Of a DNA stretch of 64,000 nucleotides, positions 46,639 to 60,191 are shown one piece after another. Below the pieces are notes generated by a model. The model worked only from the letters and a program-made list of their open reading frames with translations. It ran no database searches and was not told the origin of the DNA. Numbering within the stretch: position 1 is the first letter of the stretch; each line of letters begins with the position of its first letter. The position numbers and the translations under genes were made by a program. The stretch is from a virus, in IMG/VR virus record IMGVR_UViG_3300048691_000182, positions 32,280-96,279 of that record; one strand, written 5' to 3'.

Positions 46639-48555
46639 ATGATTGAGTCGAAAGATTTTGCGAACACAGGCAACCAAACCGCTACTCAGGCCAACGTTGC
46701 TGAACAGCAACCAGTTAACTATGCACAGCAAAAGCCTGTTGCAGCAAATCCCCATGACGGTAAACTCAAGCCTTGGACTTTCCAAGACCGTAGTCCTTTT
46801 GGTTCGGCGCCAATTGCACGTGGCGTTGGTAGCGAGTACATTGTTAAGCTGGCAGGTATCCTGGGCGAGAAGTTCAAAGCAGCTCCAGCTACTTTCAAAT
46901 ACAATCTGATCAGCATTGATCGCTTGATTGATTCGCAGATTTGGTTCAGTGCTTTGGTGTTCTGCATGGCAGATGCTAAGAACGACAAAGCTGTTGCTTT
47001 TCACACACTGATTCTGGAAGCAACCAACATTGCTATTGCTCCTTTGACAAAGCCTTCAGGCATGCCAAATGAGAACATTCCAGTCGAAGTGTTTCGTCCT
47101 TCCAGCGATGCGTTTGACGCCGAACTGATGAAGTTGGTGAGCGCGCGTGTTCGTGATCAGTTCCCTGGTGCTAAACAGCTGTCTACTTTGGCCACTGTTG
47201 TTCCTCGTGATTTCAACATGGTTGATCAAAACCTGATCCATCAGTTGGCTGTTCAAATCTCTTTGGCCAATACCACTGAGCTGTCCATCAACGCCCCTGA
47301 TTTCACCGACATTAATCTGTCTAACATGGTTAATGACTCTCGCTTGACAGTTACCCCCACGTATACCAAGGGTGTAACGATTGATGCAGTTGATCACCCA
47401 ATCCGTTCCGATATCACGATTAACTTCAGTGCTAAAAAGAATGGCACTGGTAATGGTAACAACGAAACATCAGTCAACGTTGGCGACAACGTGGCGCAGA
47501 TTAGTCAACTGACTGGTTTCATCGATTTCATGTACTCCCCAGTACTGCCGCCTGACGTTACTAACTTTGGCGCCTACCAGCACCAACTGAAGCCTGGCGT
47601 TATCCCAACACAGACTTACGCGGCTCGTCTGGTTATTACCAACCTGGAAAACTACTTTGCAACAACTTTGCCCGGTAACCTGCTGTCGCTGACGACCGCG
47701 TTGGCAGCAAGTGAAAATGGTAACTGGATGCAAACGTTCTTGCCTAGTAACCGTTTGGTTGGTGGTAAGCCTTTCATGATGCATGATGTTGGTGGTTTGG
47801 GTATCGAAACCATCGGTAACGGTAAGCGTATTAATACCGATGGTGATGCCTTCCGTCCTGAGGACATGGGTAAGTTGATCGGTATGACTGTGCGTGAAGG
47901 TCTGACGCTGAGTCTGGATGTTCCTGATTGCGCGCCAAACACCTGGGGTTTGAAAGTATTCTCGGCAGCTGCTTCTGCACGTGAAGGTGAATTCACCCCA
48001 GCAATGGCAGCAATTTGCAATGCAGCAAACTACCTGACTAATGGTGCTTTCGATCGTAATTTCAACAAGAACTCACCAATGTTTGTTGATAAGGGTAACC
48101 GTGTGCATTTGGGTTACTACACCACCAAAGAAGGTGAGAAGCGTGACATCCGTGATTACGATTACTTGAGCGTAGCTAACATCACAGGCGAAGCTGATCC
48201 ACGCGACATCCGTCAGTGGTCGGATACGTTTGCACAAGTTAACCTACCTTTGGTTCCTCGTTTGGCTGCTCGTAAGCGCATCATCTCTAACCTGCAACCT
48301 AATGCAGTGTTCACTGGTTACGGCCACCGTGTTACGTTCAGTTCGCAGTTTATGACTGCTCTGGCCATCTCTTGCCGTGAAGCAGGTTTTGCACCAGTTC
48401 TGAGCACGCAATACGGTACTGCCGGTATGAACAACCAACGTGGCGTTAATAGCTTTGTTGGCGATGCCGCAATGGGTTCTAACAACGGTGTATTCCAATC
48501 TGCCAGCAATGGATGGAATGGTAGCAACACTTTCGGTTACGGTGGCCGTTGGTAA
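46639..48555 (+). CDS. chmA: Chimallin, phage nuclear shell protein (phiKZ gp54-like)
   Basis: 638 aa; lies immediately upstream of nvRNAP beta' and divergent from the gp52-like gene; strong high-expression codon bias; RVHLGYY..GEKRDIRDYDYL segment and G/N-rich C-terminal tail. Confidence 0.8.
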   Translation: MIESKDFANTGNQTATQANVAEQQPVNYAQQKPVAANPHDGKLKPWTFQDRSPFGSAPIARGVGSEYIVKLAGILGEKFKAAPATFKYNLISIDRLIDSQIWFSALVFCMADAKNDKAVAFHTLILEATNIAIAPLTKPSGMPNENIPVEVFRPSSDAFDAELMKLVSARVRDQFPGAKQLSTLATVVPRDFNMVDQNLIHQLAVQISLANTTELSINAPDFTDINLSNMVNDSRLTVTPTYTKGVTIDAVDHPIRSDITINFSAKKNGTGNGNNETSVNVGDNVAQISQLTGFIDFMYSPVLPPDVTNFGAYQHQLKPGVIPTQTYAARLVITNLENYFATTLPGNLLSLTTALAASENGNWMQTFLPSNRLVGGKPFMMHDVGGLGIETIGNGKRINTDGDAFRPEDMGKLIGMTVREGLTLSLDVPDCAPNTWGLKVFSAAASAREGEFTPAMAAICNAANYLTNGAFDRNFNKNSPMFVDKGNRVHLGYYTTKEGEKRDIRDYDYLSVANITGEADPRDIRQWSDTFAQVNLPLVPRLAARKRIISNLQPNAVFTGYGHRVTFSSQFMTALAISCREAGFAPVLSTQYGTAGMNNQRGVNSFVGDAAMGSNNGVFQSASNGWNGSNTFGYGGRW

Positions 48556-48689: not shown

Positions 48690-49934
48690 ATGGCAATTAG
48701 TTTAGAGCTAGTAAATAACGATAAAGTTTTCTACGAGTTACCTAACCCACCTATTATTATCAATGATGTACTCAATACATCAGAAGAAGAAAGAGAAGCA
48801 TTACAAAAACTTATCTTTAGTAAGTACGGCTCAGAGCACCTAAGTAACTTGCCCTCGTGTGATTGTGATGAAGGTGTTGGTATTGTTGGTGAATTCAACA
48901 TCGGTGTCTATTGTCCTAATTGCAGAACCTGTGTCAAGCCACCCATTGACAAAGAAATCAATTCAATACTCTGGATGAGGTCGCCAATAGGGGTGCAGCG
49001 TCTTATTAATCCAATAGTCTGGACTATGATTAGTGAGCGTTTTACAATCTCTAAGTTTAATATCATTCAATGGTTATGCGATACTGGGTATTCAGTAGAT
49101 GCTAAAGTACCAAGTGAGATAGAACTCATCCAAGAAGCAGGCATAACAAGAGGTTACAATAATTTTGTAACTAACTTCGACGCTATTATGGGTTTTCTTT
49201 TTAGTATAAAGAAATTGTCTTTAAAAGTAAAAGGACCTATTGACCATCTTCAGGTATTACTAAAAACACATAGAGAATGTTTATTTAGTAAACATATTCC
49301 GCTACCCAATAAAGCTCTTCTAATTATTGAAGAGATTAATGTAGGTACATATGTAGACCCTGTTGTTCCAGTAGCTATCAATGCTATCCAGACAATTGCC
49401 AGTATTGATGCACCAGGTAATACTTTTAGCCTTCGTGTAAAAGAAAACAGGACTGTTAAATCATTAGCTACCTTGGCTGAGTTTAACGAAATGTATGCAC
49501 ATGTGGGTCTAGGTGGTAAACCAGGTATTCTTCGAAGAAACGTATTTGGTACTAGTAATAACTTTAGTTTCCGTACAGTTATTACTTCAATTACAGAACC
49601 CCATAAAGAAACAGATATACACATACCTTGGCCTGTAGCAATTACTGTATTTAATTACCACCTGATTAACCATTTAAAGAAAATGGGATTCACTCTAAAT
49701 GAATCTATTGGGTATTTGAATAAACATGCTTACAAATACGATCCTTTGATTGATAGTATTTTTGACAAGTTTTTGAATGCAGGTAAAGGTAATGGAATTC
49801 CTCTTACACTTGGTCGTAATCCAAGTCTAGGTAAGTCTAGTCTTCTTAGTGTATTTATTACTAAGATTATCAAAGACCCTAAAATAGTAGCTACTAAAAT
49901 TAGTATACTAATTACAGCCCATCTTAATGCTGAT
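48690..49934 (+). CDS. Non-virion RNA polymerase beta'-like subunit, exon 1 (phiKZ gp55-like)
   Basis: Zn-ribbon CDC..CPNC; GKPGILRRNVFG, RNPSL; ends ...AHLNAD at the inferred splice site. Confidence 0.88.
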
Positions 49935-50398
49935 AGAAACTTAAGTAGTATTTAAGTATTAAGTATGTAAAATGAGGAGAAACATTTTATGTACAAAATT
50001 TAATAGAACATAAAACTAAAAAAAAAACGTTTTAGAGTTCGCTATTTAAGATAAGTCCTTTTATTTAGTAATAAATAAAAAGTATTCTTTTGAATTGCTG
50101 GAATAACTTGTTAGATCAGTAAACTACAATAATCCTGAAAAGAGATTATGAATGTTTAAAAATTACTGAGTAGAGTCAATCAGCAGCTAAGACCCTAAGC
50201 TCGTGAGAGTATGGGTAAAGTTCAACGACTATCCCGTAGCTGGGAGTAGGGGTTAGCAACTCCGAAGTGGAAGACTACCTAACTAGCAATAGAAGGTAGA
50301 AGATATAGTCTGTTCCTCACTGGAGACGTGAGGCGGGTGGAATACACCGGGTGTTTTTAAGAGTAGCCACTGGCGAGCGACTAACACTGGACAAAAAG
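49935..50398 (+). mobile_element. Group I intron (464 nt, no endonuclease ORF)
   Basis: Core elements P (gaattgctggaa), Q (aatcagcagc), R (gttcaacgacta) and S (aagatatagtct); 5' exon ends in U and intron ends in G; removal restores NADFDGDE in frame. Confidence 0.9.
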
Positions 50399-50629
50399 TT
50401 TGACGGCGACGAATGCAACTTCTGTTTATTCTTGGACGAAGATCTTGCTAAAGAGTTTGAAAGTTTGAAACCACACAAAAGTGTTTTCAGTCTTAATTCT
50501 CCAAGACAGGTATCTGGAAATTTGTCCATGCCTAAGCCAGTGGTATCTAGTATTGCTGAGCTCATGAGCTCAAAAGAAATACCTGATCCTGCTAAGTTAG
50601 AGAAAATGAAGAGTTTGTATGTAGACTAA
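50399..50629 (+). CDS. Non-virion RNA polymerase beta'-like subunit, exon 2
   Basis: Begins TTT GAC GGC GAC GAA (FDGDE); spliced product is 491 aa. Confidence 0.88.
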   Translation, partial: FDGDECNFCLFLDEDLAKEFESLKPHKSVFSLNSPRQVSGNLSMPKPVVSSIAELMSSKEIPDPAKLEKMKSLYVD

Positions 50630-52743: not shown

Positions 52744-53864
52744 TGAATAATTTAAAAATAGCCGTAATCTCTGATATCCACTTAGCTGCTAAAAATAATC
52801 CTACTAAAAATATTATCAATAATCTCTGTAATGCTTTGCCTGATAACGAAGAAACAGCTGAGTTGGATATTGTATTCTTAGCTGGCGATGTTTTTGATAG
52901 GTTAGTTAATTTACCAGAAGATGAAGTTTTTGAAATAGATATGTTTATATGCTATCTACTTCAGCTTTGTAAAAAACACAATATCAAGTTAAGGGTATTA
53001 GATGGAACGAAAAGTCATGACTGGTTCCAATCAGCTAGATTCGTAGAACTCAATAACATCGTAAAATATAAGACAGACGTTGTTTATGTAAGAGATTTGT
53101 CTATTGAGTACATTGAAGAGTATGGAATTAATATTCTTTATGTGCCAGACGAATGGTCTACAAGTACCCAGGATACTTTAGACCAGGTAAGAACTTTGCT
53201 CAGTGTCAAAGGTTTAGATAAAGTTGATTTTGCTATTATGCACGGTCAGTTTGATTACCAAATGCCTTTATTAGCTAAAAAGATACCTGTGCACGATTCA
53301 AAAGCTTATTTAGATATAGTTAGAGAATATATCTTTATAGGACATGTGCATACACATACTTTCTTTGATAGAATTGTGGCCCAGGGTTCTTTTGATAGAT
53401 TAAGTCACGGAGAAGAAGAACCTAAAGGCCATGTCAGAGCTGAGATTAACTTAGATACTTCAGAGAAACAATGGTTCTTTATCGAGAACAAAGGTGCTAA
53501 GATTTATAAAACAATTAAGTGTAGCGATAGACTTAATTTAGAGAGCTCTTTAAATAAGATAAAAACCCAAATTAAAAACGTTCCTGACTATAGTGCTATT
53601 CGCGTTTATGCTAATAAAGGTCATCCTATTTTAGAAAATAAACACGAGCTTACTAAAATAGCTCCATTGATGGTCTGGACAGTATTTGGTAAAGAGGAGC
53701 AAACAAAAGAGCAAAAGTTTGCAGAAGAAGATAAAGCAATAGAATCAGGAATTACAATTACTTCTGAAAATATCCATGATCTTTTAATGGGTAAAATAGA
53801 AGCAATTGAAGTTAATGATTTAATTTATAATAAATGCAGTGAGCTTTTAAAAGAAATAATTTAA
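52743..53864 (+). CDS. SbcD/Mre11-like metallophosphoesterase nuclease
   Basis: SDIHL, AGDVFD, GTKSHD, MHG and GHVH motifs. Confidence 0.88.
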   Translation: MNNLKIAVISDIHLAAKNNPTKNIINNLCNALPDNEETAELDIVFLAGDVFDRLVNLPEDEVFEIDMFICYLLQLCKKHNIKLRVLDGTKSHDWFQSARFVELNNIVKYKTDVVYVRDLSIEYIEEYGINILYVPDEWSTSTQDTLDQVRTLLSVKGLDKVDFAIMHGQFDYQMPLLAKKIPVHDSKAYLDIVREYIFIGHVHTHTFFDRIVAQGSFDRLSHGEEEPKGHVRAEINLDTSEKQWFFIENKGAKIYKTIKCSDRLNLESSLNKIKTQIKNVPDYSAIRVYANKGHPILENKHELTKIAPLMVWTVFGKEEQTKEQKFAEEDKAIESGITITSENIHDLLMGKIEAIEVNDLIYNKCSELLKEII

Positions 53865-53920
53865 TATTTGTATTACTTAAGAAACCTTAAAAAGTTTCTT
53901 AAGTAATACTAAGGAGTTTT

Positions 53921-54814
53921 ATGTCGTTAAGTAGAGAATTAATTTTAGGCAGAGCAATATCTGCTTTTGCTGTATCCGTTGGAACAAGTCTTGCTCTTGA
54001 ATCAATTTTCATGTCAGACCAACCAAGCATAGATCCTGACAGAACACCACCTCAAAAAGTTAATATAGGAAACTATGATGAGTTCTGGATTAATATAGCT
54101 ACTTTATTTAGAAACTTAATTGGTTCGTTACCTAAAGAAGGAGCTAATTCAGTTTCATCGCCTGATATTAAGGAAGCCCTGATTAATGAAATGGCTTACA
54201 TAGCTGATCTAGTATCACATTACTCAGAGAGAAAAACAAACACTATTTTTTATGTTTGCGAGTATAAAAAAATAGAGGCCATGGAAAGTAAATTCATCAT
54301 GGTGAGGAAAGACAATACGGTTAATCAGAAGAATTATAGAGCGCTGCTGAACAAAACTTTACAAGATATTTTAAATAGCGTAGGCAAAGACGACAATGTT
54401 CGCTTATTCGATTCTGATATTAATGTTTCCCCTAAAGGAAAACCTGGTATTTCTTCTAAAAAATGCAGAGCTATTATTCTAACACACAATGCTTTTGATT
54501 TAACTAGCCAGCACAGATTTGCTAATCTTGATTTAATAGAATCTCACAGTGGTGTTTTAAAGAAACGAGCTATGTTTTATACTAAATACTTAAACGGCAA
54601 TGATTTACCTATGATACCGTTTATGCGTAGCTTACTACCCGTGTTTGGCGATAGAGAAAATTTCTCACCAATAGCCATTAGTATTAGAAAAGCTTTATTA
54701 GATCTAGCAGTAAAAAATAGATGGAGTCAACTCACCACTATTGCTAAAATCAAGGATAATTTAAACCAGCTTCCTAATAAGTTTATGGTCGATACTATTA
54801 ACTCAATAATTTAA
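53921..54814 (+). CDS. Conserved jumbo-phage core protein
   Basis: 297 aa, AAGGAG RBS; follows SbcD as in phiKZ-like phages. Confidence 0.65.
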   Translation: MSLSRELILGRAISAFAVSVGTSLALESIFMSDQPSIDPDRTPPQKVNIGNYDEFWINIATLFRNLIGSLPKEGANSVSSPDIKEALINEMAYIADLVSHYSERKTNTIFYVCEYKKIEAMESKFIMVRKDNTVNQKNYRALLNKTLQDILNSVGKDDNVRLFDSDINVSPKGKPGISSKKCRAIILTHNAFDLTSQHRFANLDLIESHSGVLKKRAMFYTKYLNGNDLPMIPFMRSLLPVFGDRENFSPIAISIRKALLDLAVKNRWSQLTTIAKIKDNLNQLPNKFMVDTINSII

Positions 54815-59507: not shown

Positions 59508-59544
59508 ATTAGATAATAAATTTATTTTGTGAGTAGGTTTAGGT

Positions 59545-59848
59545 GGCCCTGTGATGGAATAGGTAGACATAAATTAGTTGTGTCCTATAGTAGAAATATT
59601 GTAGAAAAATGGTGTAAATTCAGGGAAAGCTTAACATGTAATGATGATGCCAATCCTGAGCGAAACTTTCGCAGTAATGTGAGATGACGTGCAGAGACTA
59701 TAATCACCTATCTTAACAAGTAAAGCTGAAGATAAAGGGATAGTCCACGTAACAACAGTAATAATACTGATAGTGAAAACTATAGTTATTTGAACAGACT
59801 TAAAATCTGTCGCCGAAAGGCATCCCGATTCGAGTTCGGGCAGGGCCA
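59545..59848 (+). tRNA. trnL: tRNA-Leu(UAA) split by a group I intron (exons 59545-59570 and 59793-59848)
   Basis: Spliced exons fold as GGCCCTG/CAGGGCC, Leu-type D arm, ACAGA-CTTAAAA-TCTGT, long variable arm, CCCGA-TTCGAGT-TCGGG and discriminator A. Confidence 0.9.
59571..59792 (+). mobile_element. Group I intron (222 nt, IC3/trnL-like core) at tRNA position 25/26
   Basis: P aaattcagggaa, Q aatcctgagc, R gtgcagagactat, S agggatagtcc; IGS GTTGTGTC pairs with GACAT|AAC with a U-G pair at the 5' splice site; terminal G. Confidence 0.9.
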
Positions 59849-59902
59849 CCTAAACCTATTTAAATATAAATTTATTATTGAAAGAACACTAAGAGATAAA
59901 GT

Positions 59903-60084
59903 AGATGAATGGCGGAATTGGTATACGCGTGGCCAGGACTTCGGTCTGAAGCTGCTAGACTGTGAACACCTAAAGCGGGATATGTGACTTCGAAGAAGAG
60001 CTATCGACACAGTCGGCCTATCATTGGGTCCGGTCTTAGACCAAGTGTGAAGGTTCGAATCCTTCTTCAGAAATCAATGATCTA
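59903..60084 (+). ncRNA. tRNA-like RNA with an expanded structured domain in place of the anticodon loop
   Basis: D arm TGGCGGAATTGGTATACGCG (59910-59929) and T arm GAAGGTTCGAATCCTTC (60049-60065) are 119 nt apart; bracketed by a 22-bp inverted repeat (59883-59904 / 60086-60107). Confidence 0.6.
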
Positions 60085-60191
60085 GCTACTTTATCTCTTA
60101 GTGTTCTAAACACTTTATTACCTATTAAGAAGTCTTATTTTTATAGACTTCTTAATAGGTAATATGTCGATTTTTTATAAAGGAGAAAGAA

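What the first reader, a model, noticed from the sequence alone, without database searches (positions are those of the whole stretch)
59545..59848. Group I intron inserted at tRNA position 25/26 (D-stem/anticodon-stem junction) rather than in the anticodon of tRNA-Leu(UAA)
Seen: the 5' exon ends at U25 (…GGTAGACAT, 59570), and the 3' exon starts at A26 (59793) with an intact UAA anticodon loop. The 222-nt insert has trnL-type IC3 core elements, P3 (ggtg/cacc), P7 (gactat/atagtc) and a terminal G. Its internal guide sequence GUUGUGUC is exactly complementary to the ligated junction GACAU|AAC, with the required U-G pair. Established: the classical cyanobacterial/plastid trnL(UAA) group I intron and other bacterial tRNA group I introns sit in the anticodon loop. 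Inference: a related ribozyme has been retargeted by IGS change to a new site in the same tRNA species. Standard tRNA scanners would probably miss this gene.
Basis: partly seen in the sequence, partly recalled or inferred. Interest (0 to 1): 0.8.

Follow-up and report, generated by a model that had tools for sequence, protein, structure and literature searches.

The report
Self-splicing intron in tRNA-Leu core
A large freshwater phage carries a leucine tRNA gene split by a self-splicing-type (group I) intron between the D-arm and the anticodon arm, not in the anticodon loop where all described tRNA group I introns sit, and a few related phages share the arrangement.

Summary
Window 59545-59570 and 59793-59848 are the two halves of a class-II tRNA-Leu(UAA). 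They are separated by a 222-nt group I intron (Rfam RF00028, 66.1 bits) that lies between tRNA nucleotides 25 and 26. ARAGORN and the Rfam tRNA model miss the gene.

Three further copies of the same split gene turned up: one in another chimallin-type jumbo phage and two in metagenome contigs. Across the four copies, 98% of cells in my P1-P9 and tRNA helices pair, and 37 of 84 pairs show compensating changes. One of these is in P10, which fixes the 3' splice site.

All four copies also have an 11-14 bp leader-trailer helix that extends the acceptor stem. None of 119 uninterrupted phage tRNA-Leu(UAA) genes has one.

A more distant relative, in a complete 172-kb phage, splits tRNA-Leu(UAA) two nucleotides further on, at 27/28.

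In two of the four copies an HNH endonuclease gene abuts the tRNA. The window's copy has none.

Descent from the classical trnL intron is neither supported nor rejected. Splicing is inferred and has not been shown.

Six literature searches found no group I intron in a tRNA outside the anticodon loop. This scan had noted anticodon-loop introns in phage tRNAs on other DNA, but none at this site. I rate it a new variant of a known kind.

The parts
59534..59544 (+). 5' leader strand of the leader-trailer helix (TAGGTTTAGGT). It pairs with 59848-59858 and continues the acceptor stem into an 18-bp helix, or up to 22 bp with G.U pairs.
   Evidence: Sequence. A run of 15 consecutive pairs. 14 of the 18 pairs of leader-trailer plus acceptor have changes on both sides among 4 loci. 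Recovered by RNAfold and RNAalifold.
59545..59570 (+). tRNA-Leu(UAA) exon 1: acceptor 5' strand 59545-51, U8 G9, D-stem 5' strand 59554-56, D-loop, D-stem 3' strand 59568-70 (nt 23-25).
   Evidence: In-script ligation followed by ARAGORN. Alignment A3.
59566..59584 (+). P1 hairpin: exon GACAU (59566-70) paired with GUGUC (59580-84), with U59570.G59580 at the 5' splice site. The guide sequence is 59577-59584.
   Evidence: Invariant, with 5 of 5 pairs in 4 of 4 loci. RNAalifold predicts it on its own as a 7-bp helix.
59571..59792 (+). Group I intron, 222 nt, no ORF. Helices: P2 59585-92/59597-604 (GAAA loop); P3 59611-14/59705-08; P4 59620-25/59654-59; P5 59629-30/59649-50; P5a 59635-37/59644-46; P6 59660-62/59688-90; P6a 59667-73/59678-84; P7 59696-701/59740-45; P8 59709-14/59729-34; P8a 59717-19/59726-28; P9 59749-53/59785-89; P9a 59756-60/59765-69; P9b 59770-74/59779-83 (GAAA loop). 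The terminal G is 59792.
   Evidence: RF00028 at 66.1 bits. Covariation counts. RNAalifold.
59577..59579 (+). P10 strand of the guide sequence (GUU). It pairs with the first three nucleotides of exon 2 (59793-95, AAC).
   Evidence: The middle pair is U-A in 2 loci, A-U in 1 and U.G in 1.
59793..59848 (+). tRNA-Leu(UAA) exon 2: A26, anticodon arm 59794-59810 (loop CUUAAAA), variable arm 59811-23, T arm 59824-40, acceptor 3' strand 59841-47, discriminator A 59848. It is followed by CC then U, so CCA is not fully encoded.
59848..59858 (+). 3' trailer strand of the leader-trailer helix (ACCTAAACCTA). It begins at the discriminator.

Best explanation
The locus is a working tRNA-Leu(UAA) gene of a chimallin-encoding (nucleus-forming type) jumbo phage. 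It is interrupted between nucleotides 25 and 26 by a compact, ORF-less group I ribozyme of Azoarcus/IC3-like architecture.

Inferred mechanism. In the precursor, the last five exon-1 nucleotides (GACAU, tRNA nt 21-25, which include the 3' strand of the D-stem) pair with the guide sequence to form P1, with U25.G at the cleavage site. Guanosine attacks after U25. The guide's GUU then aligns A26-A27-C28 of exon 2 (P10), and the terminal G (59792) is exchanged for the exon-1 3'-OH. The D-stem (A10-U25, U11-A24, G12-C23) can form only after ligation.

Exon 1 is only 26 nt long, and in the precursor it touches exon 2 through the acceptor stem alone. I propose that the conserved 11-14 bp leader-trailer extension of that stem acts as an exon clamp. 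It would hold the halves together through both steps and be trimmed afterwards.

Shown: the anatomy, the conservation and the covariation. Inferred: splicing itself, the order of folding and the clamp role.
For: A perfect class-II tRNA-Leu appears only after removal of exactly 59571-59792.

RF00028 scores 66.1 bits.

Among the matches to my DNA patterns, four independent loci carry the same arrangement. They are the window; L025/L161 in viral record G001; L129; and L151 in metagenome contigs. One of 27 pattern matches was a member, and 3 of the 129 loci examined.

On their alignment (A3), 98.2% of 328 cells pair, against 85.2% in shuffles (0 of 500 reach it) and 34-45% when partners are slid. 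37 of 84 pairs change on both sides, against 14.3 in shuffles. These include P2 (3 of 8), P3 (1 of 4), P5a (2 of 3), P6a (4 of 7), P7 (1 of 6), P8 (4 of 9), P9b (5 of 5), the T stem (2 of 5), and the acceptor plus leader-trailer helix (14 of 18).

The P10 middle pair covaries with tRNA nt 27.

RNAalifold and single-sequence RNAfold (z -7.2) recover the same helices without my input.

The two viral records that hold it have chimallins only 37% identical, yet their introns are 81% identical.

Leader-trailer runs are 15, 14 and 14 bp, and 12 of 13 in the fourth locus. They are 0-7 bp in 119 uninterrupted phage tRNA-Leu(UAA) genes, 1 bp in 3 phage tRNAs with anticodon-loop introns, and 0-5 bp in the window's 5 other tRNAs.

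DNA contigs of three further freshwater runs carry the intron with a few substitutions. None falls in P1, the guide sequence or P10. Two turn G.U into Watson-Crick pairs.
Against: There is no direct evidence of splicing. The only RNA-library contig (run X15, 59556-59706, depth 2.6) is unspliced across the 5' junction. It has just 15 nt on the exon side and could be carried-over DNA.

P1 never varies, so it has no covariation support of its own.

Four related sequences are few, and the shuffle control does not correct for relatedness.

The more distant 27/28 relative (L340) has no leader-trailer helix, so such a helix is not a general requirement for an intron in this region.

The helix could serve RNase III-type processing instead.

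The window's record is only 36% complete. Whether this is the phage's only tRNA-Leu(UAA) is unknown.
Confidence: 0.8

Rival explanations
1. The intron is a dead or crippled mobile insertion and the tRNA-Leu gene is a pseudogene. No mature tRNA is made.
For: No spliced RNA was seen. The one RNA-library contig is unspliced. The site is one at which no group I intron has been shown to splice.
Against: Both the ribozyme helices and the tRNA stems keep pairing through compensatory changes in four diverged loci. P10 tracks tRNA nt 27. The cloverleaf is intact in all four loci.
Confidence: 0.06
2. The intron splices as proposed, but the leader-trailer helix is not an exon clamp. It is a processing or stability signal, for example a double-strand-specific (RNase III-type) cut site that releases the pre-tRNA from a longer transcript such as the upstream HNH mRNA or the tRNA cluster.
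For: With the acceptor stem the helix makes 18-22 bp of near-perfect duplex. A second structured RNA 30 nt downstream (59880-60112) is closed by a 22-bp helix of the same style. In G001 the helix starts right after the HNH stop codon. The 27/28 relative does without it.
Against: None of the window's 5 other tRNAs and none of 119 uninterrupted phage tRNA-Leu(UAA) genes has such a helix. Its occurrence therefore tracks the 25/26 intron and not tRNA processing in general. The two roles do not exclude each other.
Confidence: 0.3
3. The site is explained by DNA-level selfishness. A free-standing HNH endonuclease cuts intron-less tRNA-Leu(UAA) genes near the D-arm/anticodon-stem junction. The ORF-less intron sits exactly there because its insertion protects the allele (collaborative homing). 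The window's copy would be a survivor that has lost the nuclease.
For: In G001 a 166-aa HNH gene (phrog_14913, E 8.6e-15) ends 11 nt before the leader. L151 has a homologue in the same place (57% identity, E 1e-30). The intron carries no ORF. G001 holds six RF00028 hits in 72.7 kb.
Against: There is no HNH homologue anywhere in the window's 96-kb record. None of the 13 neighbouring ORFs scanned has a nuclease family hit. None lies in the 283 nt held upstream in L129. The cleavage site of the nuclease is unknown. This is compatible with the best explanation and concerns origin, not the RNA mechanism.
Confidence: 0.35

Closest known systems
[quoted passage not shown]
   Same: Same tRNA species. 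Small ORF-less group I ribozyme. U(-1).G wobble and terminal G. Shared core stretches. 13 such introns were fetched here from cyanobacterial genomes for comparison.
   Different: That intron sits inside the anticodon loop, between nt 34 and 35. This one sits between nt 25 and 26. Identity is only 59% over 215 aligned columns. The two form separate clades in the tree, although joining them is not rejected. The classical pre-tRNA keeps D, T and anticodon stems intact, whereas here P1 consumes the D-stem 3' strand.
[quoted passage not shown]
   Same: Same set of helices: P1, P2, P3-P9 with no large peripheral domains. GAAA loops on P2 and a P9 hairpin. Similar size (222 nt).
   Different: It sits in the anticodon loop. 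The tRNA body folds independently of the intron. No leader-trailer helix is described in the passages I read.
Group I introns in the T-loop of the tRNA-like domain of tmRNA (343 genes counted in Williams 2020)
   Same: The only described group I introns in a tRNA-shaped domain that lie outside an anticodon loop.
   Different: The host is tmRNA, not a tRNA. The site is the T-loop, not the D-stem/anticodon-stem junction.
Group I introns in phage tRNA anticodon loops
   Same: Phage tRNA genes split by small group I introns that tRNA finders miss. Some have a free-standing HNH gene beside them.
   Different: All of those lie in the anticodon loop. The three I examined have no leader-trailer helix.
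Archaeal bulge-helix-bulge tRNA introns at non-canonical positions (PMC4090602 abstract; PMC4033280 passages) and plastid trnG(UCC) group II intron in the D-stem (recalled, not checked here)
   Same: tRNA genes interrupted outside the anticodon loop, in or next to the D-arm.
   Different: Different intron classes and chemistry: protein endonuclease plus ligase, or group II. They are not guanosine-initiated group I ribozymes.

Membership tests
Group I intron (Rfam RF00028) | Covariance-model score above the curated gathering score | tested here: met
   66.1 bits against 50, E 1.5e-14, model positions 1-253.
Group I intron (Rfam RF00028) | P1 formed by the 5' exon and an internal guide sequence, with a U.G wobble at the 5' splice site | tested here: met
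   59566-70 pairs with 59580-84, and U59570.G59580 is the wobble. Identical in 4 of 4 loci. Predicted independently by RNAalifold.
Group I intron (Rfam RF00028) | Terminal guanosine, and P10 pairing of the guide sequence with the 3' exon | tested here: met
   G at 59792. GUU (59577-79) pairs with AAC (59793-95). One of the 3 pairs changes on both sides among the loci.
Group I intron (Rfam RF00028) | Conserved core P3-P4-P5-P6-P7-P8 with the P3/P7 pseudoknot | tested here: met
   All helices pair in 4 of 4 loci. P3, P5a, P6a, P7 and P8 carry compensatory changes.
Group I intron (Rfam RF00028) | Guanosine-dependent self-splicing | not testable with these tools
   Needs in vitro transcription or RNA from infected cells. 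The one RNA-library contig is unspliced and shallow.
Bacterial tRNA group I introns as catalogued (21 settings, Williams 2020) | Insertion at one of the eight positions in or flanking the 7-nt anticodon loop | tested here: not met
   The insertion lies between nt 25 and 26. The anticodon loop CUUAAAA (59799-59805) is intact. That survey tested anticodon-loop positions only, by design.
Subgroup IC3 | Compact core without the P5abc-type extension | tested here: inconclusive
   Only a 3-bp P5a hairpin is present. PMC11835236 (passage) says P5(a-d) is absent from IC3. No subgroup-specific model or reference alignment was available here.
Subgroup IC3 | Phylogenetic grouping with the classical tRNA introns | tested here: inconclusive
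   The family forms its own clade (SH-aLRT 97), apart from the cyanobacterial Leu clade (100). The AU test for one joint clade gives p 0.477.
Class-II tRNA-Leu(UAA) | Cloverleaf with a long variable arm, anticodon UAA and discriminator A73 | tested here: met
   ARAGORN on the in-script ligation gives tRNA-Leu(taa), 84 nt. A at 59848. That A73 matters for bacterial leucine identity is recalled, not tested.
Collaborative homing (ORF-less intron plus free-standing endonuclease) | Endonuclease gene next to the intron-containing gene | tested here: not met
   For the window: no HNH or GIY-YIG hit in 13 neighbouring ORFs, and no homologue in the whole record. The feature is met in G001 and L151.
Collaborative homing (ORF-less intron plus free-standing endonuclease) | The endonuclease cuts the intron-less allele at or near the insertion site | not testable with these tools
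   Needs a cleavage assay.

The most novel reading that the evidence does not exclude
A lineage of group I ribozymes has left the anticodon loop and colonised the structural core of tRNA-Leu(UAA), at 25/26 in four loci and 27/28 in a fifth. At 25/26 the pre-tRNA has co-evolved a dedicated 11-14 bp leader-trailer 'exon clamp'. This clamp would replace the exon-exon pairing that anticodon-loop introns get for free, and it makes tRNA core folding (D-stem formation) strictly dependent on splicing. That would be a new pre-tRNA architecture. It would also show that tRNA group I introns appear confined to the anticodon loop partly because search tools look only there.
Probability: 0.35. Interest if true: 0.8.

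Novelty: new variant of a known kind. Interest (0 to 1): 0.72.

Why it matters
Every tRNA group I intron described so far lies in the anticodon loop. There the tRNA body folds on its own and presents the splice sites. The large surveys look only at that loop (Williams 2020). Here the ribozyme must use part of the D-stem as its substrate helix, so splicing and folding of the tRNA core are coupled.

If splicing is confirmed, three things follow. The known target range of tRNA group I introns widens. A natural test case becomes available for how much exon structure a small ribozyme needs. And a class of phage tRNA genes is exposed that current annotation tools cannot see: the 27/28 relative scores below Rfam's gathering threshold as well.

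The HNH genes beside two copies offer a handle on how such a site was invaded.

Tried and rejected
- **Exact and gapped DNA patterns for close relatives in IMG/VR.** Nothing found. The window's own record is withheld from these scans.
- **Relatives through neighbouring proteins.** No close phage. The nearest isolate by chimallin is Burkholderia phage FLC9 at 36%, and its tRNA cluster has no group I intron.
- **BLAST of the locus against GenBank phages and of the L340 locus.** Only the short P3-P6 core matches other introns. No isolate carries the arrangement.
- **Guide-sequence pattern in 185,579 species genomes.** Of 51 matches, none is a family member by the motif filter. One locus with two loose motifs (L292) was not examined further.
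- **ARAGORN with a lowered threshold on brute-force joins.** Far too many false calls, so it was abandoned. At the default threshold one alternative join (59564/59785, an 85-nt tRNA) appears. I rejected it because no guide sequence pairs with that exon end and the relatives do not support it.
- **First pair count.** P3 and P7 were mis-nested because of the pseudoknot. It was replaced.
- **First alignment.** It used wrong minus-strand coordinates. It was replaced.
- **Reads.** No contig of the four runs joins 59570 to 59793, neither as an intron-less DNA allele nor as spliced RNA. Contigs show presence only, so this says nothing about absence.
- **Structured region at 59880-60112.** I tried to read it as a second split or permuted tRNA and could not.
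- **Supplements.** Table 1 and Figure 3 are images. I rely on its text for the statement that only anticodon-loop sites were tested.

Full report
**What is there**

Window 59545-59570 reads as the first 26 nucleotides of a class-II tRNA: acceptor strand, U8 G9, a 3-bp D-stem and an 11-nt D-loop. Window 59793-59848 reads as the rest: A26, an anticodon arm with loop CUUAAAA, a long variable arm, the T arm, the acceptor strand and discriminator A. I joined the two slices by coordinates inside a script, and ARAGORN called an 84-nt tRNA-Leu(taa) with all stems intact. On the genomic sequence ARAGORN finds nothing, with or without its intron option. The Rfam tRNA model has no hit there, even at E up to 1.

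The 222 nt in between (59571-59792) match the Rfam group I intron model over its full length at 66.1 bits, against a gathering score of 50, E 1.5e-14. Because the intron and exon 2 both begin with A, the mature sequence would equally allow 26/27. The rule of U before the 5' splice site and G before the 3' splice site selects 25/26.

**Context**

The window is the right-hand 64 kb of a 96,279-b IMG/VR virus record that CheckV estimates to be 36% complete. It encodes a chimallin (Pfam PF25677, E 2.4e-38). It is therefore a phiKZ-like, nucleus-forming type of jumbo phage. The nearest isolate, Burkholderia phage FLC9, is only 36% identical in that protein.

The split gene closes a run of tRNA-Asn, tRNA-Arg and tRNA-Ser genes. 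A second group I intron (50037-50333, 70.7 bits) splits the phage RNA polymerase beta-subunit gene. Contigs from several freshwater metagenomes hold the locus.

**Relatives**

Exact patterns and neighbouring proteins found nothing. A 19-nt P3/P4 core pattern gave 27 viral loci, and one of them (L025) has the same exon-intron junction. A pattern built on the exon end plus the guide sequence matched at least 118 metagenome loci and 11 viral loci. Of the 129 loci examined, a motif filter kept three: L161 (the same record as L025, handle G001), L129 and L151. The same pattern in one genome per prokaryotic species gave 51 matches, none of them a member.

There are therefore four independent copies. 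All are tRNA-Leu(UAA). All are split after ...GGTAGACAT and before A26. Their introns are 221-225 nt long and 81-86% identical to the window's. G001 is another chimallin phage, but its chimallin is only 37% identical to the window's. It holds six RF00028 hits in 72.7 kb.

**Structure and covariation**

On the four-sequence alignment A3 I wrote the helices by hand and counted them.
- 84 pairs lie in 14 helices, and 98.2% of 328 cells pair. Shuffles give 85.2%, with 0 of 500 reaching the observed value. When the 3' partners are slid by 1-3 columns, 34-45% pair.
- 37 pairs have changes on both sides, against 14.3 in shuffles and 1-6 when slid.
- Compensatory pairs occur in P2 (3 of 8), P3 (1 of 4), P5a (2 of 3), P6a (4 of 7), P7 (1 of 6), P8 (4 of 9), a GAAA-capped P9 hairpin (5 of 5) and the T stem (2 of 5).
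- P1 is invariant.
- The middle pair of P10 is U-A in two loci, A-U in one and U.G in one. The guide sequence follows tRNA nucleotide 27, which fixes the 3' splice site independently of the tRNA fold.

RNAalifold, without my structure, predicts the same helices and adds a P9 base helix (59749-53 with 59785-89; 3 of its 5 pairs are compensatory). RNAfold of the window's precursor alone recovers most of them (minimum free energy -109.7 kcal/mol, z -7.2).

Four related sequences are few, and the shuffle control does not remove relatedness. The slid controls and the independent prediction argue against an artefact.

Substitutions seen in other freshwater samples avoid P1, the guide sequence and P10. 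Two of them turn G.U pairs into Watson-Crick pairs: 59588 in P2 and 59671 in P6a.

**The leader-trailer helix**

In all four loci the nucleotides just before tRNA position 1 pair with the discriminator, the following CC and the trailer. This extends the acceptor stem. The sequences differ completely between loci. Runs of consecutive pairs are 15, 14 and 14, and the fourth locus pairs at 12 of 13 positions. 14 of the 18 pairs of this combined helix change on both sides.

Controls:
- 119 uninterrupted phage tRNA-Leu(UAA) genes that share the window's anticodon arm have runs of 0-4 bp in 116 cases and 5, 6 and 7 bp in one case each.
- Three phage tRNAs with anticodon-loop group I introns have runs of 1 bp.
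- The window's five other tRNAs have runs of 0-5 bp.

The helix therefore goes with the 25/26 intron.

The same 120 loci also show how rare the site is. 119 are called as uninterrupted tRNAs, and the one remaining locus is cut by a contig end but is contiguous across 25/26. In the 119, nucleotides 10 and 25 are G-C in 112. The split genes have A10-U25, which supplies the U needed at the splice site while keeping the pair.

**A second site**

A pattern made of the conserved 3' hairpin plus the start of exon 2 found L340, in a complete 171,987-b phage with terminal repeats and no chimallin match. Its tRNA-Leu(UAA) is split by a 381-nt intron after U27, inside the anticodon stem. P1 is GCAU/GUGC, and ligation gives an 86-nt tRNA-Leu with perfect stems.

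In my set of introns its best matches are the 25/26 family (67 bits, against 45 or less for the others). In the tree it joins them with weak support (73). It has no leader-trailer helix. It scores only 36.2 bits on RF00028, below the gathering score.

**Ancestry**

I fetched reference introns from 61 cyanobacterial genomes. Eighteen had a hit. By ARAGORN, 13 introns lie in tRNA-Leu(UAA) anticodon loops, and the others in Arg(CCU), Met(CAU) and Asn(GUU).

In a quick maximum-likelihood tree of 45 introns (236 columns, MAFFT alignment) the four 25/26 introns form a clade (SH-aLRT 97) and the 13 classical trnL introns form another (100). Forcing the two together costs 1.85 log-likelihood units (AU p 0.477), so the data do not decide. 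Identity to anything outside the family is 59-62%, and the best classical trnL intron reaches 59%.

The set of helices matches what the cryo-EM paper lists for the Azoarcus intron (PMC13168695, passages read). 'IC3-like' is therefore fair, and 'retargeted trnL intron' is unproven.

**Mobility**

The intron has no ORF. In G001 a 166-aa HNH endonuclease gene (phrog_14913, E 8.6e-15; Pfam HNH_3 below its cut-off) ends 11 nt before the leader. L151 has a homologue in the same position (57% identity over 84 residues, E 1e-30). The window's record has none. The 13 ORFs scanned around the window's locus have no nuclease family hit. L129 shows none in the 283 nt held upstream. This resembles the pairing of ORF-less introns with free-standing nucleases that this scan noted at other phage tRNAs. 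Nothing here shows where the enzyme cuts.

**Mechanism**

Inferred from the established group I pathway, as summarised in Williams 2020 and PMC13168695:
1. P1 forms between tRNA nt 21-25 and the guide sequence.
2. Guanosine attacks after U25.
3. P10 aligns A26-A27-C28.
4. The terminal G is displaced by the exon-1 3'-OH.

The D-stem cannot coexist with P1, so the tRNA core folds only after ligation.

Exon 1 is held to exon 2 by the acceptor stem alone. I propose that the leader-trailer extension is an exon clamp. The main alternative is a duplex-specific processing site. The 22-bp helix that closes the neighbouring structured RNA and the absence of the helix at the 27/28 site are points for that alternative.

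**What is known**

- The 2014 review PMC3984707 states that all phage group I introns then known were in protein genes (passage).
- Williams 2020 (whole text) lists 21 settings of bacterial tRNA group I introns, all in the anticodon loop. Its pipeline tests only eight anticodon-loop positions. It also counts 343 tmRNA genes with an intron in the T-loop.
- PMC4033280 and PMC8450103 (passages), PMC11835236 and PMC12908238 (passages) mention no other site.
- Six full-text searches found no group I intron in a tRNA outside the anticodon loop.
- Earlier notes of this scan describe many anticodon-loop introns in phage tRNAs on other DNA, and none at this position.

**Verdict**

The feature is real and conserved, and it is very probably a functional split tRNA-Leu gene. 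The intron class is known. The insertion site in the tRNA core, the accompanying leader-trailer helix and the sister site at 27/28 are new as far as I could determine. Splicing remains to be shown.

Noticed in passing
window 50037-50333 (flanked by ORFs 48690-49955 and 50351-50629): A second group I intron (RF00028, 70.7 bits) splits the gene for a phage multisubunit RNA polymerase beta subunit. Both ORF halves hit phrog_2987. Introns in RNA polymerase genes of nucleus-forming phages are a known theme (recalled).
   Followed up: partly
window 59880-60112: A structured RNA lies 30 nt downstream of the tRNA-Leu. A 22-bp perfect closing helix encloses about 180 nt. The inside contains a tRNA-Leu-like D-arm stretch (59909-59929) and a T-arm-like hairpin (60051-60067). 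MFE -83 kcal/mol, z -5.6. ARAGORN and Rfam do not call it, and no held locus has a homologue. One metagenome contig carries a 39-nt deletion inside it (59966 to 60006). I could not read it as a tRNA.
   Followed up: partly
window 46639-48555: Chimallin (phage nuclear shell protein) gene, Pfam PF25677, E 2.4e-38. This marks the phage as a distant member of the nucleus-forming jumbo phages. The best isolate match is Burkholderia phage FLC9 at 36%.
   Followed up: partly
L001 1706-2013 (Klebsiella phage Muenster MT708547.1, about 302826-303133): An unannotated tRNA(CAU) gene split in its anticodon loop by a group I intron (RF00028, 104.1 bits). It lies in the 515-nt 'empty' gap between the annotated tRNA-Ser and tRNA-Asn, with an HNH endonuclease gene about 240 nt downstream of the cluster. 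BLAST shows the same core in other Alcyoneusvirus-like records.
   Followed up: partly
L037 (G001:C1:33498-36717, minus strand): Two adjacent tRNA genes of the second chimallin phage are each split by a group I intron in the anticodon loop. By my reading they are tRNA-Arg(UCU), split after U34, and tRNA(CAU), split after the anticodon. The 72.7-kb record holds six RF00028 hits in all.
   Followed up: partly
L340 (IMGVR_UViG_3300005590_000001, 53169-54604, minus strand): tRNA-Leu(UAA) of a complete 172-kb phage, split by a 381-nt group I intron between nt 27 and 28, inside the anticodon stem. It scores below the Rfam gathering threshold (36.2 bits) and has no leader-trailer helix.
   Followed up: yes
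L036 1737-2237 (minus) and L151 3-260 (plus): Homologous HNH endonuclease genes end just upstream of the split tRNA-Leu in two of the four loci. In G001 a DprA-like gene (phrog_768) and tRNA-Thr lie further upstream. About 1.4 kb downstream of the tRNA-Leu has no ORF of 60 aa or more.
   Followed up: partly
run X10, contig 'record 7' laid on window 59578-59747: A 296-nt metagenome contig matches the intron core with 17 substitutions and 8 gap positions. Its first 125 nt do not match the window. This is a diverged relative of the intron in another context that I could not retrieve.
   Followed up: no
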